DNA of 64,000 bases from Nitrospirota bacterium (lineage in GTDB: Bacteria; Nitrospirota; Thermodesulfovibrionia; Thermodesulfovibrionales; JdFR-88), in assembly GCA_021789555.1 (NCBI GenBank), contig JAJYJK010000009.1:5222-69221 (forward strand), read 5' to 3'. The position numbers were made by a program, and so were the translations under genes. The notes beneath the pieces were generated by a model that made no database searches, was not told where the DNA came from, and was given only the letters and a program-made list of their open reading frames with translations. Numbering within the stretch: position 1 is the stretch's first letter; each line of letters opens with the position of its first letter. Shown here piece after piece: positions 509 to 42,640 of the stretch.

Positions 509-844
509 TTACTCCACCGCCACCACCACCGCCATCACCACCAGCCTCTCCCCCTTTGATGCCTTGAAACCGTGCTCGACCATCGGGTCGCAGAGGATCG
601 CCGTTTCCTTATCGGCCTCTATCTGCCTGTCGCCCACCGTGAAGACGCCGCTTCCTTCCACCGCGTACATCAGCAGCCTCATGGGCGCCTTGTGCGGGGC
701 CAGTTCCTGCCCCGGCTCCAGGCACATAAGCGCAACCCTCATCTCCGGGGTCTCCGCGAGCATTTCCCTCGATATCCTGTCCGGATAGAATTTCTTGAGC
801 CTTTTCAAATCAAGCACCTGAACGGCCGACTTTGCCTGCTTCAT
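509..844 (-). CDS. Cupin domain protein
   Basis: 111-aa ORF. The stretch LEPGQELAPHKAPMRLLMYAVEGSGVFTVGD fits the cupin G-x5-H-x-H...G motif region. Confidence 0.65.
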   Translation of the reverse strand: MKQAKSAVQVLDLKRLKKFYPDRISREMLAETPEMRVALMCLEPGQELAPHKAPMRLLMYAVEGSGVFTVGDRQIEADKETAILCDPMVEHGFKASKGERLVVMAVVVAVE

Positions 845-1096: not shown

Positions 1097-1816
1097 TCAA
1101 AACTGCTTAAGCAACGGTATAAGCACAATGCCGATAAAATCCTGAAGGAAGTGCATTACGATAGGAGCAATCAGGCTCTTCCGCCATTGGTAAACGAGAG
1201 CAAAAACAGCTCCCATGGCGCCAATGGTAACAACGCTGGCTGTTCCTTCATAGCCGTGCCCGAGGGAAAAGATCACCGCCGAAAGCAATACCGCGGCGGC
1301 GGGGCTTGATGTTATGGCCTTGATGCGCAGCATGAGATATCCACGGAAAATGGTCTCCTCTGCTACGGCGACTACAACGACCATAAAAAAGGCCATCAGA
1401 AATTCCGCCGGGCCTTTTTCGCTTATTAATGCGGGCAGCGGGGTCGACGGGGCTGAGAGGCCCGCTCTATGCAGCAGGTTTTCAAGCACAGAGGAAGCAA
1501 AGAGCAAAGGAATAAACAGCCCAATGCCTATGCTTGTTTCTTTCCAGATACCTCGCGCCGTCCAGCCAATCGCCATGACAGGCTCCCTATCGCGCCAGAT
1601 AAAAAAGAGAATCAGGCTTACCAGGGAAAGGTCGCGCAGAACGGTTGCAATTGATATGAGCATGAAGCTCAGGCTTCCTTGTCTGACCGCGAAAAATGAA
1701 AAAACCAGAGAAGGTAAAATAAGGAAAAGAAAAACACAAAGTTCTACACACCGCTCCCTGCGATTTAAGTACCGGGGCCATTCACCGCTCACACGAGTGT
1801 GTAAATCTTCCGCCAT
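1097..1816 (-). CDS. CPBP family intramembrane metalloprotease (CAAX protease/Abi)
   Basis: Polytopic membrane ORF with EETIFRGYL, FSLGHGY and HFLQDF motifs typical of CPBP/Abi proteases. Confidence 0.8.
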   Translation of the reverse strand: MAEDLHTRVSGEWPRYLNRRERCVELCVFLFLILPSLVFSFFAVRQGSLSFMLISIATVLRDLSLVSLILFFIWRDREPVMAIGWTARGIWKETSIGIGLFIPLLFASSVLENLLHRAGLSAPSTPLPALISEKGPAEFLMAFFMVVVVAVAEETIFRGYLMLRIKAITSSPAAAVLLSAVIFSLGHGYEGTASVVTIGAMGAVFALVYQWRKSLIAPIVMHFLQDFIGIVLIPLLKQF

Positions 1817-2829: not shown

Positions 2830-4053
2830 ATGGAGGCATCGGGGAAACGCAGAACACAGAAGGGCTCCGCCTACAGGCTCATCGTCTCCATGGGGATGGT
2901 AAGCCTGTTTGGCGACGTCACCTATGAGGGGGCAAGGAGCATCACGGGCCCGTACCTTGCCGTGCTTGGCGGCGGGGCCGCCATCGTCGGCCTCGTATCC
3001 GGCCTCGGAGATTTTCTGGGTTATGCCCTGCGCCTGGCCTCCGGGTATATAGCCGACCGCACGAAGGCATACTGGCCGCTCACTTTCGCCGGTTACGCCC
3101 TCATATTCTCCATCCCGGTCATGGCCTTTGCCGGCAACTGGAAAACCGCCGCCCTGCTCATTGTGCTCGAACGGCTCGGCAAGGCCATAAGGACCCCCGC
3201 CAGGGACACCATACTTTCGCACGCCGCAAAAGAGGTGGGGCGTGGATGGGGGTTCGGACTCCATGAGCTCTTCGATCAGATCGGGGCGGTGCTTGGTCCT
3301 CTGATCTTCACCACTGTCTTTATTTTCCGGGGCAATTACCGCCAGGGATTTGGCATCCTCTGGATACCGGCCGCCCTTTCAATGCTGTTTCTGGTCCGGG
3401 CCGCGATAAAGACGCCCGCCCCCGAAAAACTGGAGCCCGGCGGGGCGGAGACAGGCGGGCGGGGGGATAATATCCTGAAGGAAGAAGAGTTGAAGAAACT
3501 GCCGCGCCTGTTCTGGTCTTACGCGCTCTTTACATTCTTCAGCGTGGCCGGGATAATGCATTTCCAGCTGGTTGCGTTTCATTTGAAAGTGCACCGTTTG
3601 GCCCCTGACGTGCTCATACCGGTGCTCTACATAATCGAGATGGCCGTGGACGGAGGCGCGGCGCTCGTAATGGGAAGGGCCTATGACAGCGTGGGCATGA
3701 GGTTCCTCGTAATCGCCCCGGTCCTGTCCCTGCCCGTGGCCTGGCTTTCGCTTTCAGGCGGGTTCGGCCTCGCGGTGGCGGGCATTGCCTTCCTGGGTGT
3801 GGTCATAGGGATACACGAGACCATCATGCGGGCCGCGATCGCCGACCTGACGGCCACCGCCAGACGCGGTGTCGCCTACGGCATCTTCAACACCATCTAC
3901 GGGCTCGCGTATCTGGTGGGCGGAGTGACGATGGGCCTGCTCTATGAGAAGGTCTCGATTACGGGCGTGGTCGCATTTTCCGCCGCCATGGAGGCCCTGG
4001 CCATAGCGGCATTCGTCCTGACCGGCTTTTCGCGCATGAAGACGGCGGCGTAG
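2830..4053 (+). CDS. MFS transporter
   Basis: 407 aa with about 12 predicted TM segments and a central charged loop; general MFS architecture (GDFLGYALRLASGYIADR). Confidence 0.75.
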   Translation: MEASGKRRTQKGSAYRLIVSMGMVSLFGDVTYEGARSITGPYLAVLGGGAAIVGLVSGLGDFLGYALRLASGYIADRTKAYWPLTFAGYALIFSIPVMAFAGNWKTAALLIVLERLGKAIRTPARDTILSHAAKEVGRGWGFGLHELFDQIGAVLGPLIFTTVFIFRGNYRQGFGILWIPAALSMLFLVRAAIKTPAPEKLEPGGAETGGRGDNILKEEELKKLPRLFWSYALFTFFSVAGIMHFQLVAFHLKVHRLAPDVLIPVLYIIEMAVDGGAALVMGRAYDSVGMRFLVIAPVLSLPVAWLSLSGGFGLAVAGIAFLGVVIGIHETIMRAAIADLTATARRGVAYGIFNTIYGLAYLVGGVTMGLLYEKVSITGVVAFSAAMEALAIAAFVLTGFSRMKTAA

Positions 4054-4115
4054 GCGCCCGCGCCCAGTCAAACCTGCCGCCACTTAATTCCGGGTCCCGC
4101 TCTCCGGCCTCCGGA

Positions 4116-4178
4116 TTAGCAGGGGTGCACGCACACGGAGCCGACCACTTTCGGCTTTGCATATTTTACCTTCTTCAT
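4116..4178 (-). CDS. Unannotated 20-aa ORF MKKVKYAKPKVVGSVCVHPC (candidate precursor/metal-binding peptide)
   Basis: ATG at 4178 preceded by GGGAAAGGAGGCGGACAG; TAA at 4118..4116. Near-identical paralog at 6019..6081. Confidence 0.45.
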   Translation of the reverse strand: MKKVKYAKPKVVGSVCVHPC

Positions 4179-4228
4179 CTGTCCGCCTCCTTTCCCATAA
4201 AGATGTTGTACCCGTCTTGCCCCTTTCA

Positions 4229-5050
4229 TCAATATCCCGGCACGGTCACATTCACGCCCGTTACCGATGTGTTTACGGTCACGGGGCAGTTGTAATAGAA
4301 ATAGCTGCCGCAGGCCTCGCATCCCACACCCGTCTGGCATGTGGGGTAGCCGCCGGGATAGCTGGTGTTTGAGAAATTCAGGTTCGGGCTGGCATAGACA
4401 TAATAGGTGCCGGCGGCGGGAATCGATATGTTGTAGTTGCCGCTGGAGTCGGTGAAGGCCGGATATTTTGCGCTGCCGCACTCGTTGAAGGAATGGGCGT
4501 ATCCCCAGTTGCCCGATTCGCATGGCGCGGTCGCCGCCTTGACCGGCCATCCGGGCAAAATTTTGCCCGAGGCCCCTTTGACCTGCCCCGAAATTAAGAT
4601 CGATTGCACGGAAGAATTGTATGGGACGGCGTACACGGTGCCAAGGTTAACGACAGTGTTTAAGTTGAAGTATATGGAACCCTGATTTGTCCAGGTATAA
4701 TCTGTCGGGCTGGGTGCGCCTAAAAGGCCCCCTCCCTGCGGTTTCCTGATCCGGACATAATACGATTGATAAGCATTAATGTTGCTGACCGTGATATTGC
4801 CATTCGCATCGCTGGCCGGGGACTGCCTGCCGCCGGGCCATCCCGGATAACTAAAATATTTGTCCATGGGGAGAGACCCTTGCGTTGTCCGCAAATATAC
4901 ATATGCGCCTTGAAGCGGGTGGGCAACACCGTTTGAATCCCTGTACATGACGGTCACGATGAGCGTATTGCCGCCCTCCGCCACAGGGACGAAAAGCACA
5001 CCCGTTATCGAAATCATTATGAAAAACATAAGCCATTTTTTCACGGACAT
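4229..5050 (-). CDS. Secreted protein with two carboxypeptidase-regulatory-like (prealbumin-fold) repeats and Cys-rich C-terminus
   Basis: Internal ATG at 5050 preceded by AAAGGAGGGAG. Signal peptide MSVKKWLMFFIMISITGVLFVPVAEG. Repeated SDANGNITV / TDSSGNYNISIPAAGTYYVYA motifs. C-terminal CQTGVGCEACGSYFYYNCP. Paralog of 5159..5968. Confidence 0.7.
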   Translation of the reverse strand: MSVKKWLMFFIMISITGVLFVPVAEGGNTLIVTVMYRDSNGVAHPLQGAYVYLRTTQGSLPMDKYFSYPGWPGGRQSPASDANGNITVSNINAYQSYYVRIRKPQGGGLLGAPSPTDYTWTNQGSIYFNLNTVVNLGTVYAVPYNSSVQSILISGQVKGASGKILPGWPVKAATAPCESGNWGYAHSFNECGSAKYPAFTDSSGNYNISIPAAGTYYVYASPNLNFSNTSYPGGYPTCQTGVGCEACGSYFYYNCPVTVNTSVTGVNVTVPGY

Positions 5051-5110
5051 CGCCTCTCCCTCCTTTGGTGATTTCGGACCTGGCATATCCCGCAAGTCTT
5101 TGCCTGCCCG

Positions 5111-5133
5111 CGCCTGCTTGCACCCTTCTTCAT
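5111..5133 (-). pseudogene. Decayed third copy of the 20-aa peptide gene (internal deletion, SD lost)
   Basis: ATGAAGAAGG is joined directly to GTGCAAGCAGG. The flanks align with those of the intact peptide genes (see finding). Confidence 0.35.
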
Positions 5134-5158
5134 TCGCGTTTCCCATCCCGTGCCCCTA

Positions 5159-5968
5159 TCAGAAAGTAATATTCACGCCGGTCATTGAATTATTGACCGT
5201 TGTCGGGCAGTTGTAGTAGCTGCAAGAGCAGGGGGAACCGATGGCCACACAGACGTAAGCACTGCAGGTGCTGGCCTCCCTGGCCGAGTAAGTATCATAG
5301 AAGCCCGGGGCGGCGGCATAGAAATAGTATGTCCCGGCGGATGGAAGTTTTATCGTGTAGTTGCCGTTTGCGTCGGTAGGGGCCAGGGCAGGAACGGCCC
5401 CTGCCCGCGGCCCTGCGCCGTTGGGACACCAAATAGCGCTCACCTCGGCATGCACATACCATCCCGAAAGCGGCTGACCCACGCTGTTTTTGACCTGCCC
5501 TGAGACCGTAATTGGCGCTGGAGCGGGACCGAATACCGCGGCATACTGGGTGCCAAGACTGACGGTGGAATTTGTGGTGACGGTTATCGCGCCGGTGATA
5601 TGCAGGCTGTAATCCCCCGTGTTGGGCGGGCCGTATGCCTGCGCCCGGGTGGGCGTTGCCGTAAGCGGCGCCCTGCGCGTGATGCGGACCTTGTAAGCGC
5701 CCTCCGGAACGCTCACCGAGATATTGCCGTTTGCATCCGAGGGCCCGAGGACATATTGCGCTTTTCTGAAATATTTTTCCTTGATCGGGAAACCCTGCGG
5801 GTAAACATGGAGATATACATAAGCATGGTCAAGCGGATGGGTTATATTATTAGCGTCCTTGTAAAGGAATGTTGCCGTGAGCGTGCCGTTTGCCTCTGCC
5901 ATACCCGCAAAAAGCGCGGCCCAAAACGCAAAGACCAAAAAAAACGAAACCCATTTTTTCAAAGGCAT
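5159..5968 (-). CDS. Secreted protein with two carboxypeptidase-regulatory-like repeats and Cys-rich C-terminus (paralog)
   Basis: ATG at 5968 preceded by AAAGGAGGGGAAGG. Signal peptide MPLKKWVSFFLVFAFWAALFAGMAEA. SDANGNISVSVPEGAYKVRI and TDANGNYTIKLPSAGTYYFYA motifs. C-terminal CSAYVCVAIGSPCSCSYYNCP. Confidence 0.7.
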   Translation of the reverse strand: MPLKKWVSFFLVFAFWAALFAGMAEANGTLTATFLYKDANNITHPLDHAYVYLHVYPQGFPIKEKYFRKAQYVLGPSDANGNISVSVPEGAYKVRITRRAPLTATPTRAQAYGPPNTGDYSLHITGAITVTTNSTVSLGTQYAAVFGPAPAPITVSGQVKNSVGQPLSGWYVHAEVSAIWCPNGAGPRAGAVPALAPTDANGNYTIKLPSAGTYYFYAAAPGFYDTYSAREASTCSAYVCVAIGSPCSCSYYNCPTTVNNSMTGVNITF

Positions 5969-6018
5969 CACCTTCCCCTCCTTTGGTGATCCTGGAGTCT
6001 TTTTCCTTGTCCCCTGCC

Positions 6019-6081
6019 CTAGCAGGGGTGCACGCACACGACGCCGACCACTCTCGGCCTTGCGTATTTCATCCTCTTCAT
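6019..6081 (-). CDS. Unannotated 20-aa ORF MKRMKYARPRVVGVVCVHPC (paralog of 4116..4178)
   Basis: ATG at 6081 preceded by GTGAAAGGAGGAGATAGCGG; TAG at 6021..6019. Lies about 50 nt upstream of the 5159..5968 start. Confidence 0.45.
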   Translation of the reverse strand: MKRMKYARPRVVGVVCVHPC

Positions 6082-6241
6082 CCGCTATCTCCTCCTTTCA
6101 CATGGAAAATTTCATGACATCAAAAGCACGCCTTATTCATTTCCTCATATCCATATATCCATTCTCATAAACAAACAATTTCCATGCCAAGCCTATAAAA
6201 ATCGATTGCCCTGATACCCCGGATATCAAGGACCGTGAAAT

Positions 6242-6270
6242 ATCATAATAAAATATCCCTTTAATTTCAA
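6242..6270 (-). promoter_or_regulatory. Candidate sigma70 promoter (TTGAAA-N17-TATGAT) for the peptide/secreted-protein operon
   Basis: Minus strand reads TTGAAAttaaagggatattttatTATGAT. The -35 element is at 6270..6265 and the -10 element at 6247..6242, about 150 nt upstream of the first peptide ORF. Confidence 0.4.
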
Positions 6271-6278
6271 GTGGTTAT

Positions 6279-6313
6279 ATAAACCTTCGGATTTAAAAAT
6301 TCCGAAGGTTTAT
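6279..6313. promoter_or_regulatory. Perfect 13-bp inverted repeat ATAAACCTTCGGA-N9-TCCGAAGGTTTAT abutting the candidate -35
   Basis: Arms at 6279..6291 and 6301..6313 are exact reverse complements. No U-tract on either side, so this looks like an operator or activator site rather than a terminator. Confidence 0.5.
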
Positions 6314-6409
6314 TAATCGGATATTTTTTGGGTGAAATACCACGCACATATTTTTTGAAGCCGGGTATTTAACACAGGGGCAAAGGACATTATACACATG
6401 GAAGAAAAC

Positions 6410-6437
6410 AAAAAAGCCGGAAGTTCCCGGCTTTTTT
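6410..6437. terminator. Rho-independent (bidirectional) terminator after 6471..6761
   Basis: AAAAAAGCCGGaagttCCCGGCTTTTTT: a GC stem flanked by A and T runs. Confidence 0.6.
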
Positions 6438-6470
6438 GCATACGCTAGCAGAAGAAGATCGGGGCTTTTT

Positions 6471-6761
6471 TCAGCAGCCCTCTATCATCCTCCTGGGCGC
6501 TGCCATCGGTTTTACACCCGTGACCATGCCGTTTGTGACGGTTATCTCGGCCTTGCCGGGCTTCACGCTCTTGATATTCAGGACATGGGCGGCCTTCAGG
6601 GTCTGGTCCTTCGTGGAGCCCGCGGGGCAGAACGTGATTGAACCGGTGCTGATGTTTACAGCCTTGATTGTGCCGGACATGGTTTTGGTCGCGGCAGCCG
6701 CTACGGCTACGAGAGAAAGCGCAAACACGATGCACACAACAATCGTCAAAGTCTTCTTCAT
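6471..6761 (-). CDS. Small secreted protein, OB/CusF-like pattern, C-terminal Cys
   Basis: Signal peptide MKKTLTIVVCIVFALSLVAVAAAA. Mature part GTIKAVNISTGSITFCPAG...KPGKAEITVTNGMVTGV resembles small periplasmic beta-barrel binders. Ends in MIEGC. Confidence 0.55.
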   Translation of the reverse strand: MKKTLTIVVCIVFALSLVAVAAAATKTMSGTIKAVNISTGSITFCPAGSTKDQTLKAAHVLNIKSVKPGKAEITVTNGMVTGVKPMAAPRRMIEGC

Positions 6762-6903
6762 CTCATCCTCCTTTTTTTAGGTTTTAATGAACATGAATTT
6801 CTGGACACTAATTTATCATATTTCCATAATTTTTTAAACCCCTGATTTACAGCTATTTTTCAAGGAGTTTCACCTTATGACAAAGGGCGCCTTCAAGAAA
6901 ATC

Positions 6904-6936
6904 AAAAAAAGCGGGGCCGGAATTTTCCGGCCCCGC
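6904..6936 (-). terminator. Rho-independent terminator of glnA
   Basis: Minus strand reads GCGGGGCCGGaaaattCCGGCCCCGC followed by TTTTTTT, 30 nt after the glnA stop. Confidence 0.65.
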
Positions 6937-6966
6937 TTCCGCTTGGGTGAAAAATGAAAAAACGGC

Positions 6967-8595: not shown

Positions 8596-9639
8596 TTACT
8601 CGTACCTGACCCGGCCCGCGCCCTTCACAGTCCCGCCCATGATAGAGGACTCATAGCCGGCCCTCTTCAGGACAGAGACCGCCTTTTGCGCGTGGGCGGC
8701 TTCGGTGACGACCACAAACCCTATGCCCATATTAAACGCCTTTTTCATCTCGAAGTCCGGAACTGCGCCCGCCTCGCGGATCATGCCGAAGATTGCAGGG
8801 GCCCTCCACGATCCCTCATCGACAAGGGCGTCTATGCGCCTGGGCAGTATCCGGTTGAGGTTGCCCGGTATGCCGCCGCCCGTTATGTGCGCCATCCCCT
8901 TCACGGCCACCCGGTTTTTCCGCAGGGCCTGAAACGCCTTGACATATATCCTGGTCGGCTCGAGCAGCTCCGCGCCCAGGGACCGCCCGGCCAGGACGCG
9001 CGGCCTCGAGGCAAGCCTATAGCGGCCGGCCTCCAGAAGCGCCTTCCTGGCAAGCGAATAGCCGTTTGAGTGCAGCCCCGAGGAGGCAAGCCCGATCAGG
9101 GCGTCGCCAGGCCGGATGGAAGAGCCGTCTATTATTGCGTCTTTTTCGACCACGCCGACGGCAAAACCCGCCAGGTCGTACTCCCCCTCCCCGTAGAACT
9201 CCGGCATCTCGGCCGTCTCGCCGCCCACGAGGGCGCAGCCGGCCTCCTCGCATCCCCTTGCAATGCCCCCGATAACCCGGGCCGCCTTCCTTGCGGCAAG
9301 CCTCCCCGTTGCGAAATAATCCAGGAAAAAAAGGGGCTCGGCCCCGCAGGTGAGGATGTCGTTTACGCACATCGCCACAAGGTCGATGCCCACCGTGTCG
9401 TGCCTGCCGGTCATGAAGGCTATCTTCAGCTTCGTGCCCACGCCGTCCGTGCCGCTTACGAGGACGGGGCGCCTGTATCTTGCCGCGTCCAGCTCGAAGA
9501 GCGCGCCGAAAAGACCGATCCCCTGCAGGACCCCCTTTCTTTTTGTCCTGCCGGCCAGGGGGGCTATCAGCTCCACAAGCCTCTCGCCTTCCCTTATATC
9601 GACGCCCGCTTTTTTATATGTCAGACCCATGATATTCAA
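8596..9639 (-). CDS. purM: Phosphoribosylformylglycinamidine cyclo-ligase (AIR synthetase)
   Basis: [10 protein letters not shown]..., [28 protein letters not shown]. Confidence 0.95.
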
Positions 9640-9672
9640 TTAAAGATAAAAAAAGGCTATTCACCCTCTCCT

Positions 9673-16563: not shown

Positions 16564-17487
16564 ATGAAAAGGGCCTTTCTTGCAGGTCTGCTGCTGGTAT
16601 TGCTGTTTTCGTTGCCGCCCGGCGCGGCCTGGGCCGGCAGCACGGTCGGGGTGATACTGACGCGGGGGACCCCCTCATACGAAATCTCTTATGACGCCCT
16701 TGTAAAATATGTTTCCGGCAGGAAAGATGTGAAATTCATCCTCCAGAGGCCCTACCCGGACCCCGTATCCTGGAGCAACTCGGCAAGGAAACTGATGGCC
16801 GTGGACGTAAGCGCGATAGTCACCTACGGCGCATCGGCGACCTTCGCGGCGCTGAAGGAAAACCCCGGAGTGCCGGTGATATTCGTCGGCCTCACAAAGA
16901 CGACGGCCGCAAGGGTAAAGGGGAAAAACGTGGCCGGGGTATACAGTTCGCTCCCCCTTGCCAGCCTCCTTAGATATCTCAAGGAGATACAGGCGACCAG
17001 GGTCCTCGGGGTCCTCTACGACAGCAGGGAAGCGGACTCGGCCCATGAGACGGCGGAAATCACCAAGGTCTCGAAAGAGTATGGGATAAGCCCGGTAAAG
17101 TTAAACCTCGTCAAGGCCGGCGGGGTCGCCGCCCTGCTTGCAAACGCCAGGATAGACGCCCTTTACGTGACCGAGTGCGCGACGGCCGGCACCGCTTACC
17201 AGTCGATCCTTGGCGCCATGTGGGACAGGAAGATCCCCGTTGCCTCGCTTATAGACGACAGCCGGAAGCCGGCGCAGGCCCTGATAACGCTCGCGCCCGA
17301 CCCCGTGGAGCAGGGGCAGCTGGCGGGGCAGCTTCTGCTTGAAGCCCTTGAGAGGTCCTCGGCGAGCGGCCTCGGGAGAGTTGAAAGCGGGCGTTTCTCG
17401 CTCATCTACAACTACAGGCAGTCCGTGGTGATGGGCCTCAGGATCTCTCTTGGCCTGGTCACCGAGGCGACCCGGGTGATTTACTGA
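16564..17487 (+). CDS. Periplasmic ABC-type substrate-binding-like protein (PF04392-like)
   Basis: Signal peptide. Pattern IVTYGASATFAALKENPGVPVIFVGLT...NVAGVYSSLP...RVLGVLYDSREADS resembles the ABC_sub_bind family. Confidence 0.55.
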   Translation: MKRAFLAGLLLVLLFSLPPGAAWAGSTVGVILTRGTPSYEISYDALVKYVSGRKDVKFILQRPYPDPVSWSNSARKLMAVDVSAIVTYGASATFAALKENPGVPVIFVGLTKTTAARVKGKNVAGVYSSLPLASLLRYLKEIQATRVLGVLYDSREADSAHETAEITKVSKEYGISPVKLNLVKAGGVAALLANARIDALYVTECATAGTAYQSILGAMWDRKIPVASLIDDSRKPAQALITLAPDPVEQGQLAGQLLLEALERSSASGLGRVESGRFSLIYNYRQSVVMGLRISLGLVTEATRVIY

Positions 17488-18368
17488 TGGCAAGAAAAGT
17501 CGTCCTGGCGATTATGCTTGTGCTGTCGGCCGCATCGTTCGCGCGGGCGCAGGAAAAGGCAAAGCTCCTCATAGGGCTCGTACCCGAGGAAAACATATTC
17601 CGCATGATAGAAAAACACCTCCCCCTTGCGGACTACATAGAAAAGAGGACCGGCATAAAAATCCAGTTCACGATACTCTCCCGCTACGGGGACATCATCG
17701 ACCGGTTCACGACGAGGAATATGGACGGGGCATTCTTCGGCGCCTTTACCGGCCTGCTGGCCAACCGAAAGCTCGGGGTGCAGCCCCTGGTCCGGCCCGT
17801 CGGCCCCGACGGCCTGGTATCGGCGCAGAGCATCGTCTTTGTGCGTAAAGACAGCGGGATAAGGACATTCGCCCAGATGAGGGGCAAGCGGGCCGTCTTC
17901 GTCGACAAGGCCACGGCCACCGGTTTCATCTACCTGCTCTACCGCCTGAAACAGATCGGGGTGACCGATTACAGCAGGTTTTTCCGCCAGTACTACTTCA
18001 CCGGCAACCATGAGGAGTCCATATACGCCGTCCTGGACGGCAGGGCGGACGTCGGGGTCGTCAAGAGCCGCTTCTTCGACAAGCTGTCGCTCAGGGACCC
18101 CCTGATCTCCGAGAGGCTCCTCGTCCTGGCGAAGTCAAACAAACTGCCAGACATCATCCTCTGCCTGAGAAGCGACATCCCCGCGGCAATACGAAACGAG
18201 CTCAAACGCACCCTTATCAACATGAAGAACGACCCGGAGGGGGCCAGGGTGCTCAGGACCCTGGGATATTCGGGGTTCGAGGAGGCAAAACCTGCCGATT
18301 TCGCCCCGGCCGCCGAACTCACGAGGGAGGCGGGCATAAACATAATGACGTATCAGTACACGAGATGA
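17487..18368 (+). CDS. PhnD-like phosphate/phosphonate-type periplasmic binding protein
   Basis: Signal peptide. LLIGLVPEENIFRMIEKHLPLADYIEKRTGIKIQFTILSRYGDIIDRF...DGAFFGAF. Confidence 0.65.
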   Translation: MARKVVLAIMLVLSAASFARAQEKAKLLIGLVPEENIFRMIEKHLPLADYIEKRTGIKIQFTILSRYGDIIDRFTTRNMDGAFFGAFTGLLANRKLGVQPLVRPVGPDGLVSAQSIVFVRKDSGIRTFAQMRGKRAVFVDKATATGFIYLLYRLKQIGVTDYSRFFRQYYFTGNHEESIYAVLDGRADVGVVKSRFFDKLSLRDPLISERLLVLAKSNKLPDIILCLRSDIPAAIRNELKRTLINMKNDPEGARVLRTLGYSGFEEAKPADFAPAAELTREAGINIMTYQYTR

Positions 18369-20428
18369 AAAAAAGGCTCATATATTCGCTCTTCCTTCTC
18401 TTTACGCTCTTCACGCTCGGCGCCACGCTCACCATCCTCTACATATACCGGACCACGTCCAACCTGCGCACCATCATAGCGCTGCACCGGGTGGAGATAA
18501 TAAGGCAGAACCTGGTCATCAACGCCCAAACCGTCCAGAGCCATCTCTACACCATAGGGACTGTTTTCGGCCCGGACGTCGACCAGGTAGTCAATAGCGT
18601 GCTAAACCTGGACAACTCCGTCCACTCCTGCCTGGGCTGCCACCATACGCCGCAGATGACGGTCCGCCTGCAGGAGATGAACAGGCTCGTGGAAGACTAC
18701 AAAGAGGCCCTGAGCTATCTCATAACCACGTCGGCGAACCCGGACCGCGTCGAAAGGCTGAGGACCGCCGCCATCGGGATAGGCAACGTCTTTTTGAACA
18801 AGTCCCAGGAGATGGCGCTCATCGCAAACGAGCGGCTCAATGAGCAGACCGTGAAGGCCATGCAGCAGATAAACAACTCGAGGTCCATCCTCCTTGTGAC
18901 GCTCATGCTCTCGTTCTGCATAGCGCTGGTAATCGCCGTCACGATGACCAGGCAGATAACCGGGCCGATAAACGAGCTTGTGGACGCGACAAGGCGCATA
19001 AAGGCGGGCAACCTGGGCTATATCACGCCTTACAAGAGCAGGGGGGAGTTCGGCGAGCTGATAAATTCATTCAATGACATGAGCCTTACGCTCAAGGAGT
19101 CGAACGAAAAAATCCTGCGCTACCTCCATAACCTCTCGAACCTCTACAGCATTACCATAACGTTCCACAGCGTCACTTCAATGACCGACATCTTCAAGGA
19201 GCTGTCGGCCGGCATCGAGGAGCTTACGGGGGCCCGCCAAAGCGGCATACTGCTCATGGACGAAAAAGGGGAGTTCTTCCGGCACATGTACCCGGCCTCC
19301 GGCATCCCGCGGGAGGCTGCGGACTCCATAAAGATCGAAGCGTCCTTCATGGACAGCCTTTACCACTCCTGCATGAGAAGGGCGCTTATACTCAACAGGG
19401 ACATCCAGAGGTCGCCCACCGCCCAGGCGGACGGGCGGCTCGGGGTGAAAAATATCATGTTCATATGGGTCAGGAACAAGGGCGAGCTGATAGGGGCCAT
19501 CAGGGCGGCCAACAAAAAGACGGGGGATTTCACGGAGGAAGACGCGAGCCTGCTGGCCATCCTCGGCAACAACTTCAGTGTCGCGCTTGAAAACGCGAGG
19601 CTCTGGGAGAGCCTGAAACTCCAGATGAAGGAGCTGAAGGACACGCAGGAGCAGCTCGTCCAGGCCGCCAAGTTCGCCGCCATCGGCGAGCTCGCCTCAA
19701 ACGTGGCCCACGAGATAAACAACCCCCTTACGAGCATCCTGGGCTACGCGGAGCTGATAAGGGAAGAGACGGACATGGACATCATGCAGCGGGACCTGGA
19801 CATCATAGAGAAAGAGTCCCTGAGGGCAAGGGACATTGTAAACCACCTCCTGGAGTTCTCCAGGAAAAGGCCGCTGAAGATAGGGCCGACCGACATAAAT
19901 GCGCTGCTGAAGAACGTCATGGAGCTTATCAGCTTCCAGATAAAGGACACCCTGATAAAGATCGTCGCCGATTTCGGCGATATCCCGCCCATAAAGGGCG
20001 ACCCCGACCAGCTCAAGCAGGTCTTCCTGAACCTGGTCAACAACGCCATCTTCGCGATGGAGAAATCCGGCGCCCTGGGCATCAAGACTTACGTGAAAGG
20101 CAATTTCGCATGCGTCCGGATATCGGACACCGGCAAGGGCATCCCAGCCGAGGTGATGGAGCGCATATTCGAACCCTTCTTCACGACGAAGAGCGAGAAG
20201 GGCACCGGGCTTGGTCTTTCGATAAGCTACAAGATAGTGCAGAGCCACAGGGGGAATTTCGAGGTGGAAAGCGCCCCCGGCAAGGGCAGTTCGTTTACGG
20301 TGAAGCTGCCCCTCGGGGACAAACCGCCGGGGGAGAGACGCCCCGCGGAGGACAAATCCGTGGCGGCAAAGGGGGTAGCGGACTCCGTCGCCGATCCCCC
20401 CGCGAAAACACCCACCCTGGAGAACTGA
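18365..20428 (+). CDS. Sensor histidine kinase (TM-HAMP-GAF-HisKA-HATPase)
   Basis: H-box [18 protein letters not shown]-box [12 protein letters not shown]-boxes DTGKGI and GTGLGLS. Start overlaps the upstream gene stop. Confidence 0.9.
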
Positions 20429-21555: not shown

Positions 21556-21644
21556 GCCCGTTTCAAACGCTCCTTGAATATGGATTTCAGATAAAGACCA
21601 GGCCCAAATTAATATTAGCCTAATTGGAGGGGTACAGGCAAGAA

Positions 21645-21669
21645 ACAGGGCGGGGAAACCCCGCCCTGT
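21645..21669. terminator. GC-rich hairpin terminator between hybrid kinase gene and asd
   Basis: ACAGGGCGGGGaaaCCCCGCCCTGT with T-rich flanks on both strands. Confidence 0.5.
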
Positions 21670-21713
21670 CTTTGTTTTTATCCGGGGGCGCGTGGGCGCA
21701 GCCCCCCATATTT

Positions 21714-23696
21714 CTACCCTTTGACCACCTTGCCCAGCACGCGGCAGAGCTCCGCTATCAGGTAGGGCTTGGCCAGGACGTCCTTGAAACCGTATTCGCT
21801 GAACCTGGACATCACCGGGTCATTGTAATAGCCCGACGAGGCGACCGCCCTGACCCTGGGGTCGATCTCCAGGAGCTTGCGGACGGCCTCCTTGCCCCCG
21901 GTGCCGCCCGAGACGATGAGGTCCAGGATCACGGCGTCATACGGGTTTCCCGAACTCATGGCGGCCGTGTACATCTCGACCGCCCTGTCCCCATCGCTTG
22001 CCAGCTCGACGCTATATCCGCACTGCTCCAGCATGCGGGCGATGACCACCCGGATGCCCTCCTCGTCGTCCATGAGCAATATCTTCCCCCTGCCGTAGAC
22101 GGCGCCTCCCTTATCATCCTCCTGCCCCGCCTGTTTCCGGTCGACCCGGCCCGTGGAGAATGCCGGCAGGTAAACGTTAAAGACCGTGACCTCATCGCCC
22201 TTCGATTCGGCGAATATCTGGCCGCCGTGCTTTTTCACTATCGAATAGGAGATGGCGAGCCCCAGGCCGGCATTCTTCCGGCCGGCGTTGAAGAACGGGT
22301 CGAACATCCTGTGCATGTGCTCCGAGGGTATCTGTCCGCCCCGGTCCTCGAAGGAGACCCTTATGTAATCGCCCTTCGAAAGGGGAATCAGCTCCGCCTC
22401 CGAAAGATGCACGTTGGCGGCGCTCACCTTTATAACGCCTCCTTCCGGCATCCCCTGCTGCGCGTTTATCAGGAGGTTGTTTATGACCTGGCTTATCTGG
22501 CCCTCATCGCAGTGCACCGGCCAGAGGTCCTCGGGGACCGAAATCTCGAATTTCAGCCCCTCGGCCGCGGTCAGCGACACCGCGTCCCTTATGATGTCGC
22601 CCACCGAAACGGCCTTCCTGCCGGCCTCCCCGGTCTTCGAGAACGTCAGGAGCTGGTTGGCCAGGTGCCTGCCCTTCAGGGAGGCCTTTTCCGCCTCATC
22701 GAGGATGTCCCTCATCTCGCCCGCGACGGGATAGAGTTTCGAGAGGGAGATATTGCCTATTATCATGGTGAGTATGTTATTGAACTCATGGGCTATGCCG
22801 CTCGCAAGCGCGCCCAGGGACTCGAGCCGCTGGGTCTTCTGAAGCTCCGCCTCCATCAGTTTCCGCTCGGTCACGTCCCTGACGTTCGTCACCACGCCCA
22901 TGACCTGGCCGGTCTTGGAATCGATGAGCGGCACACTGTGGACCTCCATCCAGCCGTCGGTCCTGTCGCCCAGGCGGTCGAACTTCATGGTCCTCAGCGA
23001 GGGCTGGCCCGACTCGAACACGGCGGCCACGGAGCAGTCGGCGCAGGGCTCGCCGCCGCCGTGGAAGACCTTGTAACACTTCTTGCCCGCCAGCGGGGCC
23101 TCCCACTTGTAAAGCTGGTCCATCATCCTGTTTGGGCGCAGGATTGTAAAATCCCTGTCGAGGATGTATATCCCGTACTGGAAGCTTTCAAATACGTTTG
23201 TGAGGAACTCCTCTTTGGCCTTTATCGTGTCTTCGTACTGTTTGCGCTGCGTTATGTCGCGCGCGACCCCGAGCACGGAGCATACCGCGCCGTGCTTGTC
23301 CCTTACGGGGATGAGGCGCGTGTCAAGCGAGATGCGCCTGCCGAAAAGAGAGATGGTTTCCTCGACGCTGTCGGGCTCGCCGGTCTGGAAGACCCGCTCA
23401 AGACGCTGCCCCGGGAACGCGAAAACACGGGGCGGAAAGACCTGCTCCACCGGCTGGCCTGTCAAGTCCTCGGCCGATTTGCCGAAAAACCCCGAGGCGT
23501 AGTCGTTGACGAATTTCAGGCGCCGGTCCTCCCCCACGATAAAGACTATGTCCAGGGAGAGTTCGGCAAGGATGCGGTAATGGTTTTCCCTCTCCAGGAG
23601 GGACTCGATAATCTTTTTCAGCCTGGCCTCGGACTCCTCGAGCCTGGCCAGCTTCTCCTCATGCGCCGCTTCATCCAGAAATCTATCTTCGTTCAT
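21714..23696 (-). CDS. PAS-domain hybrid sensor histidine kinase with C-terminal receiver
   Basis: Multiple PAS repeats. H-box LASGIAHEFNNILT, HATPase motifs (NAGLGLAISY) and a receiver domain (KILLMDDEEGIR...DAVILDL). Start at MNEDRF. Confidence 0.9.
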   Translation of the reverse strand: MNEDRFLDEAAHEEKLARLEESEARLKKIIESLLERENHYRILAELSLDIVFIVGEDRRLKFVNDYASGFFGKSAEDLTGQPVEQVFPPRVFAFPGQRLERVFQTGEPDSVEETISLFGRRISLDTRLIPVRDKHGAVCSVLGVARDITQRKQYEDTIKAKEEFLTNVFESFQYGIYILDRDFTILRPNRMMDQLYKWEAPLAGKKCYKVFHGGGEPCADCSVAAVFESGQPSLRTMKFDRLGDRTDGWMEVHSVPLIDSKTGQVMGVVTNVRDVTERKLMEAELQKTQRLESLGALASGIAHEFNNILTMIIGNISLSKLYPVAGEMRDILDEAEKASLKGRHLANQLLTFSKTGEAGRKAVSVGDIIRDAVSLTAAEGLKFEISVPEDLWPVHCDEGQISQVINNLLINAQQGMPEGGVIKVSAANVHLSEAELIPLSKGDYIRVSFEDRGGQIPSEHMHRMFDPFFNAGRKNAGLGLAISYSIVKKHGGQIFAESKGDEVTVFNVYLPAFSTGRVDRKQAGQEDDKGGAVYGRGKILLMDDEEGIRVVIARMLEQCGYSVELASDGDRAVEMYTAAMSSGNPYDAVILDLIVSGGTGGKEAVRKLLEIDPRVRAVASSGYYNDPVMSRFSEYGFKDVLAKPYLIAELCRVLGKVVKG

Positions 23697-23805
23697 CAAG
23701 GTTATCTTCGACCAAAAAACGACACCCGCCGGCGCGCAAAACCATAATGGCAAACACCTATCGCCGATATAATACTTATTCGGCCTTTTGGAAGAAAGAC
23801 TTTAG

Positions 23806-25050: not shown

Positions 25051-25064
25051 GAAATGGGTCCCCC

Positions 25065-36849: not shown

Positions 36850-37416
36850 ATGAAAAAGATAATCCTGATGACGGCGGCATTCCTGATGCTGGCTGCGGCA
36901 ACGGCTTTCGGGGCCCAGGCAGGCGGCCAGGGCGCAGGCGTGAAGATAGGTTATGTGGACCTTCAGAGGGCCCTGAACGAGTGCAACGCGGGCAAGGCCG
37001 CGAAGGCCGATCTCCAGGGCATGATGAAACAACTGCAGTCCACCATAGACCAGAAGGTCAGCGAAACGGAGAAACTGAAGGCCGAACTCGAAAAACAGGC
37101 CCTGGTGCTCTCGCCGGAGGCCAGGAAGCAGAAACAAGACGCCATCGAAAAGCTCACCAAGGAGACCCAGGCCCTCATCAGCAACTCCAACTCCGAGATG
37201 CAGAAGAAGCAGCGGCTGAAGGAAATCGCCATCCTCAAGAAAATAAAGGCCGTCATAGATGACATCGGCACGAAGGGGGACTATCTCGTCATACTGCCGG
37301 CCGACGTCATCCTCTATTCCAGAAACGGGATAGAGGTCACGGACGAGGTCATAAGCCGCGTGAACCAGATGGGCTCAAAGTCCGCCCCCAGGGCGCCGGC
37401 AAAAAGCGGCAAGTAA
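36850..37416 (+). CDS. skp: OmpH/Skp periplasmic chaperone
   Basis: Signal peptide plus a coiled-coil region, KIGYVDLQRAL. Sits between bamA and lpxD. Confidence 0.85.
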   Translation: MKKIILMTAAFLMLAAATAFGAQAGGQGAGVKIGYVDLQRALNECNAGKAAKADLQGMMKQLQSTIDQKVSETEKLKAELEKQALVLSPEARKQKQDAIEKLTKETQALISNSNSEMQKKQRLKEIAILKKIKAVIDDIGTKGDYLVILPADVILYSRNGIEVTDEVISRVNQMGSKSAPRAPAKSGK

Positions 37417-37436
37417 GGCCGAAGGCCCCACAAGGG

Positions 37437-38880: not shown

Positions 38881-38886
38881 AAAAAA

Positions 38887-42390: not shown

Positions 42391-42640
42391 GGGATAACTA
42401 GTTTAGATTAAAAAAGACAAAGGCGTCAATTTCCCCCCTTCAATAGCTGCCCTCCCCTTTTCGGGTCCTGGGCGGTTTCCGGCGCAAATCTGTTAGAATA
42501 TTGGCGATATGCCAGGGCCGGGTCTCCATCGTCTCGCAGGGTCGGCCCGGCGCGCCGCGCCGGGAGAGGCGCGCTTTTGCCCGCGCGGCCCTGAAGGCCC
42601 CCGCCGCTTCCGGTCCTTTTAGGGGAGTCTTAAAACAGCC

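What the first reader, a model, noticed from the sequence alone, without database searches (positions are those of the whole stretch)
4116..6081. Two near-identical unannotated 20-aa ORFs ending in VCVHPC bracket a secreted-protein tandem (candidate RiPP-like or metal-binding peptides)
Seen in sequence:
- Minus strand 4178->4116 encodes MKKVKYAKPKVVGSVCVHPC*. Minus strand 6081->6019 encodes MKRMKYARPRVVGVVCVHPC*.
- Both have GAAAGGAGG 8-9 nt upstream of the ATG.
- 7 of 21 codons differ: three Lys->Arg, Val->Met, Ser->Val, one synonymous Tyr, and the stop. The six codons VCVHPC are nucleotide-identical.

Resemblance to known precursors:
- The layout is a short basic leader K-Y-A-K/R-P-K/R-V-V-G followed by a Cys-x-His-Pro-Cys C-terminus.
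- The leader resembles the K-[WY]-x-K-P-x-[VIL] leader of PqqA-type radical-SAM substrates.
- The basic-leader-plus-Cys-core design resembles methanobactin MbnA.

What is missing: no radical SAM/SPASM, PqqD/RRE, DUF692/MNIO, YcaO or LanM-like gene occurs anywhere in this window. If these are precursors, the maturase is unlinked or the chemistry is different. A C-terminal C-x-H-P-C could also simply be a soft-metal ligand set.

Alternative explanation: a conserved RNA element, since GCCGA-N6-UCGGC and the GUGCAC palindrome lie inside both ORFs.
Basis: partly seen in the sequence, partly recalled or inferred. Interest (0 to 1): 0.75.

Follow-up and report, generated by a model that had tools for sequence, protein, structure and literature searches.

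The report
Unannotated 20-residue peptide gene family
The two tiny ORFs are real, translated-looking members of an unannotated 18-20-residue peptide family (…KY-x-x-P-K/R-V-V-G-S-x-x-V-H-P-C-stop) that sits beside secreted cell-surface-type proteins in several bacterial lineages, and in one relative lies in the same gene cluster as an orphan radical-SAM peptide-modifying system, so it may be that system's missing substrate.

Summary
Both ORFs exist as described, and they are the only two copies in the window.

They belong to a family of at least 29 distinct copies. The copies come from Nitrospiraceae MAGs, Geobacter-like contigs and one phage-like contig. All are intact, and all have a Shine-Dalgarno site.

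Selection acts on the peptide, not on an RNA:
- Variable sites fall mostly at third codon positions, and pN/pS is 0.21.
- Flanks are at random identity.

Across the family only Tyr6, Val17, Pro19, Cys20 and the stop are invariant, with His18 nearly so. Cys16 is replaced by T, S, I, V or A outside, and once inside, the Nitrospirota group. C-x-H-P-C is therefore not the family's defining motif.

Almost every copy lies next to a gene for a secreted two-beta-sandwich protein. No maturase is in the window.

In one Geobacter-like contig, two copies lie in a same-strand cluster. The nearer copy is 5.7 kb upstream of a complete GeoRSP cassette (PqqD chaperone, rSAM/SPASM and SPASM-only proteins, all above NCBIfam cut-offs).

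Best reading (about 0.45): a PqqA-like precursor whose C-terminal VHPC is modified. Main rivals: a cis-acting leader peptide, or an unmodified small peptide.

The parts
6019..6081 (-). pepA: 20-codon ORF plus stop, MKRMKYARPRVVGVVCVHPC*. It is the first gene of the operon.
   Evidence: It belongs to a 29-copy family under purifying selection at the protein level.
6091..6099 (-). Shine-Dalgarno GAAAGGAGG of pepA, 9 nt before the ATG
   Evidence: A GGAGG-type site lies 7-10 nt upstream in all 22 Nitrospirota-type copies examined. The rest of the upstream flank is at random identity.
6011..6028 (-). 7-bp hairpin CCCCUGC-UAGG-GCAGGGG, with the pepA stop codon in its loop
   Evidence: 'GGCAGG' directly follows the stop in 7 of the 22 copies. 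Its meaning is unknown.
6242..6270 (-). Promoter-like site TTGAAA-17-TATGAT, about 160 nt upstream of pepA
   Evidence: This is a consensus match only; the number of such sites in the region is not above the shuffled expectation.
5159..5968 (-). Secreted protein 1 (269 aa): Sec-type signal peptide plus two beta-sandwich domains of the CarboxypepD_reg type
   Evidence: Pfam PF13620, 37.8 bits against a cut-off of 32.3. AlphaFold model pLDDT 85.5. The best PDB matches are pilin, adhesin and S-layer beta-sandwich tandems, with TM about 0.25. 49 close homologues were found, and more than 200 by profile search.
4229..5050 (-). Secreted protein 2 (273 aa), a paralogue of protein 1 with no peptide ORF of its own upstream
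   Evidence: (P0036)
4116..4178 (-). pepB: 20-codon ORF plus stop, MKKVKYAKPKVVGSVCVHPC*. It is the last gene of the operon, and no family gene lies downstream.
   Evidence: The next gene is a convergent MFS gene at 2830-4053.
4186..4194 (-). Shine-Dalgarno GAAAGGAGG of pepB, 7 nt before the ATG

Best explanation
The two ORFs are genes for a ribosomally made precursor peptide.

**Proposed layout (inferred).**
- The basic N-terminal part (M-K-K-x-K/R-Y-x-x-P-K/R-V/I-V/I-G-S) acts as a short leader. A PqqD-type peptide chaperone binds it, as PqqD binds PqqA.
- The invariant C-terminal V-H-P-C, always followed directly by the stop codon, is the part that is modified.

**Proposed maturase (inferred).** A radical SAM/SPASM enzyme of the GeoRSP type carries out the modification. 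It is encoded elsewhere in this genome, but in the same cluster in a Geobacter-like relative.

**Proposed chemistry (speculative).** The named relatives of that enzyme include AhbD, annotated in NCBIfam as 'heme b synthase'. They also include the mycofactocin maturase MftC, which decarboxylates a C-terminal residue. A reaction on the free C-terminal cysteine, such as oxidative decarboxylation and/or a cross-link to Val17 or His18, is therefore the most economical guess.

**Proposed role of the product (inferred).** It works together with the secreted beta-sandwich and NosD-like proteins whose genes it accompanies almost one-to-one. It could be a ligand, prosthetic group or partner, and co-transcription would give matched supply.

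**What is shown.**
- The peptide genes are real and under protein-level selection.
- They are linked to the secreted family.
- They co-localise with GeoRSP in one lineage.

**What is not shown.** Binding by PqqD, the chemistry, export, and the link of the product to the secreted proteins are all inferred.
For: **1. Protein-level selection.**
- In the 22 Nitrospirota-type copies, variable sites in codons 6-20 number 6, 5 and 14 at codon positions 1, 2 and 3. pN/pS is 0.21.
- Identity is 0.80 inside the ORF against 0.26-0.31 in the flanks.
- V-H-P-C-stop is kept through all synonymous codons in loci of 33-59% GC.

**2. Stand-alone copies argue for a product that acts in trans.**
- pepB ends its operon against a convergent gene.
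- L006 5135-5194 is followed by a terminator-like hairpin and unrelated genes.
- A phage-like contig carries MKKYMKPKVVGSSSVHPC* with its own SD. It lies between a helicase gene and a strong hairpin followed by a promoter-like site.

**3. Cluster context in L043 (14,981 nt, all genes on one strand).**
- It holds two peptide copies, at 3281-3343 and 6880-6942.
- It also holds an operon: OpuAC-like, ResB-like, permease, cupin, PqqD, rSAM/SPASM and SPASM-only genes.
- The last three score 151.7, 553 and 322 bits against TIGR04302, TIGR04303 and TIGR04304. The curated cut-offs are 100, 400 and 300.
- No NCBIfam model matches the peptide, so no precursor of this sequence family is curated for that system.

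**4. A shared module ties the peptide arrays to the GeoRSP operon.** Homologues of the NosD-like, 243-aa CarboxypepD_reg and OpuAC-like genes of L043 flank the Nitrospirota arrays. They are 32-45% identical and appear in L001 and L014.

**5. A stable stem-loop usually follows the ORF.**
- Mean z is -1.64 over 28 copies, and 10 copies have z < -2.
- Several hairpins carry U-tracts.
- From my own knowledge, this is the usual layout of RiPP precursor genes such as pqqA, nisA and mccA.

**6. Enzyme relatives.** After GeoRSP itself, the best NCBIfam hits of the L043 rSAM are NirJ2, AhbD, the uncharacterised rSAM/SPASM family TIGR04053, MftC, NirJ and, lower down, PqqE (E 4.5e-55 to 1.7e-41).
Against: **The GeoRSP link is thin.**
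- It rests on one fully resolved contig, L043.
- Two shorter contigs have compatible gene order but are cut off before the cassette (L042, L048).
- No PqqD or rSAM/SPASM gene lies in the 64-kb window.
- None lies in the 20-kb loci L001, L003 and L030, nor in the Geobacter sp. locus L034.
- None lies in the 8-kb pieces of MAG WY3.bin132. That check used tblastn with the L043 proteins and a CxxxCxxC scan.
- Having looked at about a dozen neighbourhoods, one chance co-location with an rSAM/PqqD cassette is not negligible.
- I could not test whether the Nitrospiraceae genomes encode GeoRSP at all.

**Other difficulties.**
- A 13-residue leader is short.
- The whole peptide, not only the core, is nearly invariant. 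About 15 near-identical copies occur per genome, which is unusual for RiPP precursors.
- The peptide has no export signal, yet its constant partners are Sec-exported proteins.
- The near-obligate position just upstream of a family gene is equally what a cis-acting leader peptide would show.
Confidence: 0.45

Rival explanations
1. The ORF is a cis-acting regulatory leader peptide (uORF). The nascent chain, whose last ~15 residues are conserved and which ends in H-P-C-stop, slows or arrests the ribosome at termination. The stalled ribosome then modulates the hairpin or terminator that follows. That in turn sets read-through or translation of the downstream secreted-protein gene, in the manner of TnaC or pyrBI-type attenuation.
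For: - At least 19 of 23 Nitrospirota-type copies lie 47 to about 500 nt upstream, on the same strand, of a family gene. The Geobacter-type copies do the same.
- Conservation rises towards the C-terminus and includes the stop codon, while the N-terminus varies in length.
- Strong hairpins, some with U-tracts, lie 11-24 nt after the stop.
- In L006 7091 the terminator-like hairpin leaves no room for a separate promoter before the next gene, so that gene must be read through.
- Each paralogue having its own copy fits control in cis.
Against: - Intact copies exist with no gene to regulate: window pepB, L006 5135, and the phage copy, which is followed by a hairpin and then a promoter-like site.
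- The spacing to the hairpin and to the next gene is not conserved (47 to >400 nt), and the intergenic sequence is at random identity.
- No alternative antiterminator pairing is evident.
- Some family genes, including whole lineages (L031, L052), have no uORF.
- This reading does not explain the PqqD chaperone system in the L043 cluster.
Confidence: 0.22
2. The ORF encodes an unmodified small cytoplasmic peptide that acts in trans. It could be a thiol/imidazole metal- or sulfur-handling peptide, or a basic arginine-rich regulator. It would be expressed together with the secreted proteins and need no maturase.
For: - The ORF has a strong SD, is compact, and has stand-alone copies.
- The C-terminal His and Cys plus a free carboxylate could bind soft metals.
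- The arrays in L001 and L003 abut nikR-cbiMNQO.
- The L043 cluster holds a permease with partial similarity to the SO_0444 Cu/Zn efflux family. It scores 102 bits, below the cut-off of 300.
- The secreted proteins give weak DUF4198 (NikK-like) hits.
- No maturase is linked in most loci.
Against: - Cys16 is not conserved, and one copy has His18Gln. The ligand set therefore shrinks to one His and one Cys.
- The metal-related neighbours are convergent or weakly matched, and they are absent from the window.
- A cytoplasmic peptite has no obvious route to act with Sec-exported partners.
- The absolute requirement that Cys be the last residue is not explained.
Confidence: 0.2
3. The conserved element is an RNA or DNA motif (the hairpin GCCGA-N6-UCGGC, the palindrome GUGCAC), and the reading frame is incidental.
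For: Both motifs are present in the two window copies. Three of the five hairpin pairs are paired in nearly all copies.
Against: - Those three pairs are fixed by the AGG, CCN and GGN codons. The other two pairs form in 14/29 and 11/29 copies.
- Overall pairing is 74.5%, against 72.4% in shuffles, and 85 of 500 shuffles do as well.
- GTGCAC becomes GTGCAT, GTTCAT, GTACAT or GTCCAC through synonymous changes.
- There is no frameshift or internal stop in 29 copies. pN/pS is 0.21 over the 22 Nitrospirota-type copies.
- Rfam gives no match near either ORF; only three sub-threshold chance matches lie elsewhere in 3800-6600.
Confidence: 0.02

Closest known systems
PqqA / PqqD / PqqE (pyrroloquinoline quinone biosynthesis)
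   Same: - The precursor is very short (PqqA is about 23 aa, from my own knowledge).
- It has an aromatic-x-basic-Pro-x-hydrophobic stretch followed by Gly.
- A PqqD-family chaperone and an rSAM/SPASM enzyme lie in the cluster of a relative.
- A stem-loop follows the precursor gene.
   Different: - There is no match to the PqqA models in Pfam or NCBIfam at E <= 10.
- There is no Glu-x3-Tyr core.
- No pqqB or pqqC gene was seen.
- The conserved core is the C-terminal VHPC.
- Up to about 15 copies occur per genome, each beside a secreted-protein gene.
GeoRSP system (NCBIfam TIGR04302 PqqD-family chaperone, TIGR04303 rSAM/SPASM, TIGR04304 SPASM-only protein)
   Same: All three proteins are present above their curated cut-offs in contig L043. 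They lie on the same strand, and the PqqD gene starts 5.7 kb downstream of the nearer peptide copy. The system is named as a peptide-chaperone system.
   Different: - Co-location is seen in one contig only.
- It is not seen in the window or in any Nitrospirota locus examined.
- No NCBIfam model matches this peptide. No paper in the searched library mentions GeoRSP or these accessions.
- That its substrate is unknown is my recollection, not a tool result.
Mycofactocin MftA / MftB / MftC
   Same: - It uses a short precursor whose extreme C-terminus is the site of chemistry, so the stop codon position is fixed (from my own knowledge).
- It has an RRE chaperone plus an rSAM/SPASM enzyme.
- MftC is among the better NCBIfam hits of the L043 rSAM (E 5.5e-50, 170.5 bits, below its cut-off of 265).
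   Different: - The C-terminus is VHPC, not GVY.
- No mftD, mftE or mftF genes were seen.
- The rSAM is assigned to GeoRSP, not to the mycofactocin family.
QhpC / QhpD (small cross-linked subunit of quinohemoprotein amine dehydrogenase)
   Same: From my own knowledge: a small Cys-containing polypeptide without a Sec signal is modified in the cytoplasm by an rSAM/SPASM enzyme. It then functions with periplasmic partner proteins. This is a precedent for how a cytoplasmic peptide could serve exported proteins.
   Different: - QhpC is much longer and carries several thioether cross-links.
- It has a dedicated exporter/peptidase.
- No sequence relationship was found or tested here.
TnaC-type ribosome-arrest leader peptides
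   Same: The ORF is about 20 codons long with conserved residues near the C-terminus, including Pro close to the stop. It lies just upstream of the gene it would control.
   Different: - Stand-alone copies exist.
- The spacing to the next gene is not conserved.
- There is no evidence of stalling.
- No sequence similarity was tested or claimed.
Methanobactin precursor MbnA
   Same: It is a short peptide with a basic N-terminal part and Cys residues near the C-terminus.
   Different: - No MbnB (DUF692/MNIO) or MbnC gene was seen in the window or in the loci with precomputed Pfam lists.
- The second Cys (Cys16) is not conserved across the family.

Membership tests
PqqA (PF08042 / TIGR02107) | Match to the family HMM | tested here: not met
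   Pfam and NCBIfam scans of both window peptides, and NCBIfam scans of six relatives, at E <= 10: no hit. HMMER's filters are weak on 20-residue queries.
PqqA (PF08042 / TIGR02107) | Conserved Glu and Tyr (E-x3-Y) that are cross-linked to form PQQ | tested here: not met
   No Glu occurs in any Nitrospirota-type copy. The only Tyr is in the leader-like part, at position 6.
PqqA (PF08042 / TIGR02107) | Adjacent pqqB, pqqC, pqqD and pqqE genes | tested here: not met
   None is in the window. L043 has PqqD- and PqqE-like genes, but they are assigned to GeoRSP, and no PqqB or PqqC is present.
RRE-dependent radical SAM/SPASM RiPP precursor (generic) | Short ribosomal ORF under protein-level selection with a conserved recognition part and core | tested here: met
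   29 intact copies, pN/pS 0.21 over the 22 Nitrospirota-type copies, and invariant Y6, V17, P19, C20 and stop.
RRE-dependent radical SAM/SPASM RiPP precursor (generic) | Co-located PqqD/RRE and rSAM/SPASM genes | tested here: inconclusive
   Met in L043. Not met in the window or in L001, L003, L030, L034, L037 and L052. Not met in the WY3.bin132 pieces.
RRE-dependent radical SAM/SPASM RiPP precursor (generic) | Peptide is bound by the chaperone and chemically modified | not testable with these tools
   This needs biochemistry. Structure prediction of a PqqD-peptide complex was not possible under the tool's input limits.
GeoRSP system (TIGR04302-04304) | All three proteins score above the curated equivalog cut-offs | tested here: met
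   In L043 only: 151.7 bits (cut-off 100), 553 (cut-off 400) and 322 (cut-off 300).
GeoRSP system (TIGR04302-04304) | System is present in the genome that holds the window | not testable with these tools
   It is not in the 64-kb window.
Methanobactin-type (MbnA) | MbnB (DUF692/MNIO) and MbnC partners, and modifiable Cys conserved in the core | tested here: not met
   No DUF692 is in the window or in the precomputed Pfam lists of the related loci. Cys16 is replaced in 7 of 29 copies.
Ribosome-arrest / attenuation leader peptide | Always lies upstream of the controlled gene, with a conserved alternative RNA structure | tested here: inconclusive
   It lies upstream of a family gene in most copies. 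However, there are stand-alone copies. The hairpins that follow are frequent but not conserved in sequence or spacing.
Structured cis-regulatory RNA | Base pairs kept by covariation, with a reading frame that is dispensable | tested here: not met

The most novel reading that the evidence does not exclude
The peptide is the precursor of a new peptide-derived prosthetic group or ligand, in the sense of PQQ, mycofactocin or the cross-linked QhpC subunit.

- The orphan GeoRSP rSAM/SPASM-PqqD system would make it from the C-terminal Val-His-Pro-Cys.
- It would be supplied one-for-one to a family of secreted beta-sandwich and NosD-like surface proteins.
- That supply would explain why each such gene carries its own precursor gene, and why a phage has picked one up.
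Probability: 0.15. Interest if true: 0.88.

Novelty: new variant of a known kind. Interest (0 to 1): 0.62.

Why it matters
If the link holds, it assigns a candidate substrate to a curated radical SAM/SPASM-PqqD system (GeoRSP). No NCBIfam model matches this peptide, and the searched library holds no literature on the system. That would make the system's chemistry directly testable with a 20-residue synthetic or co-expressed peptide.

The finding also shows a blind spot of gene callers. A 63-nt gene occurs in about 15 copies per genome and is conserved across phyla. It is missing from every protein collection queried, except where an accidental upstream start lengthened it.

The near one-to-one pairing of a tiny cytoplasmic peptide gene with genes for Sec-exported surface-type proteins has no obvious precedent that I know of. 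It calls for an explanation whichever mechanism is right.

Tried and rejected
**Readings rejected**
- RNA-element reading: pair counts and codon statistics reject it, and Rfam gives nothing.
- C-x-H-P-C metal site, or a methanobactin-like core: rejected as a family feature once copies lacking Cys16 and a His18Gln copy were found.
- Lipoprotein-type or Sec signal reading of the peptide: considered and rejected from the sequence. The hydrophobic stretch is only about 5 residues, and Val precedes the Cys.
- CAAX-type processing by the nearby Rce1-like protease (window 1097-1816): rejected. The Cys is terminal, and that gene is absent from the other loci.
- Link between the phage peptide and the neighbouring phage rSAM gene: three related phage contigs have the rSAM homologue without the peptide. 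I treat the adjacency as coincidental.

**Searches that found nothing or were limited**
- Searches for the peptides themselves found nothing. Ten exact 20-mers are not in the protein collection. tblastn against GenBank phages and PLSDB plasmids gave no match. Literature strings gave nothing relevant.
- Literature on GeoRSP or TIGR04302-04304: nothing in the library.
- GeoRSP rSAM against plasmids: only distant (<35% identity) rSAM proteins.

**Limitation of the two large scans.** The genome and metagenome DNA scans used patterns that required Cys16, because they were designed before the second subfamily was known. They therefore under-report the family. The apparent restriction to two Nitrospirae species applies only to the Cys16 subfamily.


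Full report
**1. The observation**

On the minus strand, 6081->6019 reads MKRMKYARPRVVGVVCVHPC* and 4178->4116 reads MKKVKYAKPKVVGSVCVHPC*. GAAAGGAGG lies 9 and 7 nt before the two ATGs.

A probe of the shared 3' end finds only these two sites in 64 kb. Shuffles expect 0.01.

The order on the minus strand is:
- a promoter-like site (6270-6242)
- pepA
- secreted protein 1 (5968-5159)
- secreted protein 2 (5050-4229)
- pepB
- a convergent MFS transporter gene (2830-4053)

By the names of >=90%-identical proteins, the window comes from a 'Nitrospiraceae bacterium' MAG.

**2. It is a gene family**

Protein 1 has 49 close homologues, all from Nitrospiraceae MAGs. I fetched the DNA around several of them and scanned collections with degenerate DNA patterns. 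This gave 23 distinct Nitrospirota-type copies.
- They are all 19-20 codons long and all intact.
- They typically occur 4-7 per array.
- At least 15 copies lie on four contigs of MAG WY3.bin132.

A profile of the secreted family reaches Geobacter, Desulfobulbaceae and Desulfuromonadaceae MAGs. Upstream of those genes lies a second subfamily, MKKAKYVAPKVVGSA[T/S/I/V]VHPC*. A more divergent member is (M)EKVRYLTSKIVDSSAVHPC*. Five of these were in the protein collection only because an accidental upstream start made them longer than 40 residues.

A scan of IMG/VR with a family-wide pattern gave one hit, with about 0.02 expected by chance by my estimate. It is MKKYMKPKVVGSSSVHPC*, on a 78-kb phage-like contig.

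In all there are 29 distinct DNA copies.

**3. Peptide, not RNA**

- In codons 6-20 of the 22 Nitrospirota-type copies analysed, variable sites number 6, 5 and 14 at codon positions 1, 2 and 3. pS is 0.48 and pN is 0.10 (ratio 0.21).
- Pairwise identity is 0.80 in the ORF. It falls to 0.26-0.31 in the flanks, apart from the Shine-Dalgarno site.
- The C-terminal V-H-P-C-stop is written with GTG/GTT/GTA/GTC, CAC/CAT, CCC/CCT/CCG/CCA, TGC/TGT and all three stop codons. The loci range from 33 to 59% GC.
The two free pairs form in 14/29 and 11/29 copies. Overall pairing is 74.5%, against 72.4% in shuffles.
- Rfam has no match near either ORF; the only hits in 3800-6600 are three sub-threshold ones elsewhere.

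**4. What is conserved**

Across the 24 peptides of alignment A2, the invariant residues are Met1, Tyr6, Val17, Pro19 and Cys20, followed by the stop. Lys3, Pro9, Gly13, Cys16 and His18 are nearly invariant.

With all 29 copies, Cys16 is replaced in 7. It is T, S, I, V or A in the Geobacter type, S in the phage copy, and S in one Nitrospirota-type copy, L027 62-124. One copy has His18Gln (L030). C-x-H-P-C is therefore a lineage feature. The family signature is KY-x-x-P-K/R-V/I-V/I-G-S-x-x-V-H-P-C-stop.

**5. Constant neighbours**

At least 19 of the 23 Nitrospirota-type copies lie 47 to about 500 nt upstream of a paralogue of protein 1 or 2, on the same strand. The Geobacter-type copies do the same. 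One L043 copy instead precedes a NosD-like beta-helix gene.

Other positions also occur:
- The peptide can be first in an operon (window pepA, L030).
- It can lie between family genes.
- It can be last in an operon. Window pepB and L006 5135-5194 are last, and the latter is followed by a terminator-like hairpin, unrelated genes and an IS3-type transposase.

Some family genes, and whole lineages, have no peptide (L031, L052). L036 seems to hold a decayed copy.

The secreted protein has a Sec-type signal peptide and two beta-sandwich domains.
- Pfam: CarboxypepD_reg.
- AlphaFold: pLDDT 85.5.
- PDB: the nearest structures are Gram-positive pilins, SdrD B domains, adhesins and SlaB, at low TM of about 0.25.

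It therefore looks like a surface or structural protein, not an enzyme. Longer paralogues add NHL propellers.

**6. No maturase in the window**

Pfam was run on 55 of the 56 ORFs of 80 aa or more that I called. It shows housekeeping genes only, such as glnA, an AIR-synthase-related gene, surE, pcm, RNase Y, leuA and serA. There is no Radical_SAM, SPASM, PqqD, YcaO, DUF692 or LanM-type domain. None of the 56 ORFs has a CxxxCxxC motif.

**7. The lead**

Contig L043 (14,981 nt, from a Geobacter-like sediment or groundwater organism) has every gene on one strand. In order:
- NosD-like protein (722 aa)
- a 264-aa distant family member
- peptide (3281-3343)
- NosD-like protein (828 aa)
- CarboxypepD_reg protein (243 aa)
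- peptide (6880-6942)
- family protein (265 aa)
- a 140-aa protein
- a 307-nt AT-rich gap
- a tightly packed operon

The operon holds, in order, an OpuAC-like protein, a ResB-like protein, a 613-aa permease, a cupin, PqqD, rSAM/SPASM and a SPASM-only protein.

The last three match the NCBIfam equivalogs of the 'GeoRSP system':
- TIGR04302: 151.7 bits (cut-off 100)
- TIGR04303: 553 bits (cut-off 400)
- TIGR04304: 322 bits (cut-off 300)

After GeoRSP itself, the best hits of the rSAM are NirJ2, AhbD, TIGR04053 and MftC, with PqqE further down.

Homologues of the NosD-like, 243-aa and OpuAC-like genes flank the Nitrospirota arrays too (L001, L014; 32-45% identity). The peptide arrays therefore belong to a larger conserved module, and in L043 part of that module is fused to the GeoRSP operon.

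No NCBIfam model matches any of the peptides. The paper library has nothing on GeoRSP. That the system's substrate is unknown is my recollection of the TIGRFAMs entry, not a tool result.

**8. Weighing the mechanisms**

For a precursor that acts in trans:
- There are stand-alone intact copies, including one in a phage. That copy is followed by a 17-bp hairpin and then a promoter-like site.
- A peptide-chaperone/rSAM system lies in the cluster of a relative.
- The leader is PqqA-like in layout: aromatic-x-basic-Pro-x-hydrophobic, then Gly.
- Cys is always the last residue. This is natural if the free C-terminus is the substrate, as for MftA (my own knowledge).
- A stable stem-loop frequently follows the ORF. 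Mean z is -1.64, and 10 of 28 copies have z < -2.

Against it:
- GeoRSP is linked in one contig out of about a dozen neighbourhoods examined.
- I could not check whether it is present in the Nitrospiraceae genomes.
- The peptide is nearly invariant over its whole length.
- The topology problem (cytoplasmic peptide, exported partners) is unsolved.

The main rival is a cis-acting arrest or attenuation leader peptide. It explains the position and the conserved C-terminus and stop. It does not explain the stand-alone copies, the unconserved spacing or the chaperone system.

I give 0.45 to the rSAM-substrate reading, 0.22 to the leader peptide and 0.20 to an unmodified trans-acting peptide. About 0.02 goes to an RNA element, and the rest to something not considered.

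**9. Known families**

The peptide works like PqqA or MftA but is not a member of either. It has no HMM match and no E/Y or GVY core. It is not MbnA-like, because there is no MNIO partner and Cys16 is not conserved. The proposal that fits best is 'precursor of the GeoRSP system', which is a hypothesis and not a membership.

**10. Limits**

- The two large DNA scans required Cys16, so they say nothing about how widespread the second subfamily is.
- pN/pS was computed on paralogues that may undergo gene conversion.

Noticed in passing
L053 6695-6751 (-), the same site as about 9597-9653 (+) in L055; contig IMGVR_UViG_3300002231_000542: A phage-like contig with RNR, helicase, primase-like and tail-fibre-like genes (33-36% GC) carries an 18-residue family member, MKKYMKPKVVGSSSVHPC*. 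It has its own SD and a strong hairpin after it. A 66-aa Cys-rich ORF and a weak Radical_SAM gene (CIRKCKFC motif) follow. Related phage contigs with that rSAM lack the peptide.
   Followed up: partly
L001 10925-14521 and L003 10867-14403: The largest Nitrospirota arrays end convergent to a nikR-cbiM-(cbiN-like)-cbiQ-cbiO nickel/cobalt uptake operon. A YeeE-like Sulf_transp gene precedes the arrays.
   Followed up: no
L003 19807-20870: The start of a large gene with a Cas12b/C2c1 RuvC-like domain lies about 9 kb from the peptide array.
   Followed up: no
window 509-844 (-): A 111-aa cupin (Pfam Cupin_2) is 28.7% identical (tblastn E 2e-9) to the cupin that directly precedes the GeoRSP PqqD gene in L043. 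Here glycosyltransferase genes follow it (seen in L033), not PqqD. This is probably coincidence.
   Followed up: partly
L036 about 5780-5800 (+): Upstream of a Desulfobulbaceae family gene there is an in-frame ...VATVHPG... with the Cys codon changed and no stop. It looks like a decayed copy of the peptide gene.
   Followed up: no
L027 62-124 and 1127-1189 (+): A short JGI contig repeats the window's layout, with peptide, family gene, peptide. One copy has Ser16 (MKKMKYARPRVVGSVSVHPC), and the other has Thr15.
   Followed up: partly
window 16564-20425 (+); also L001 1862-2770 and L036 7593-11400: A Phosphonate-bd-type periplasmic binding protein gene recurs near family genes. In the window and in L036 it lies next to a histidine kinase gene, and in L036 also next to a sigma-54 response regulator gene. 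This could be a regulator of the system.
   Followed up: no
window 1097-1816 (-): An Rce1-like CPBP intramembrane protease gene lies 2.3 kb beyond pepB. The family is often tied to bacteriocin immunity or processing. It is not found near the arrays of other genomes.
   Followed up: partly
window 21624-23747, 24334-25119, 37314-39351, 42440-44813: Several long ORFs that I called have no Pfam hit and odd composition. They may be shadow frames opposite real genes, so the gene map of these stretches is unresolved.
   Followed up: no
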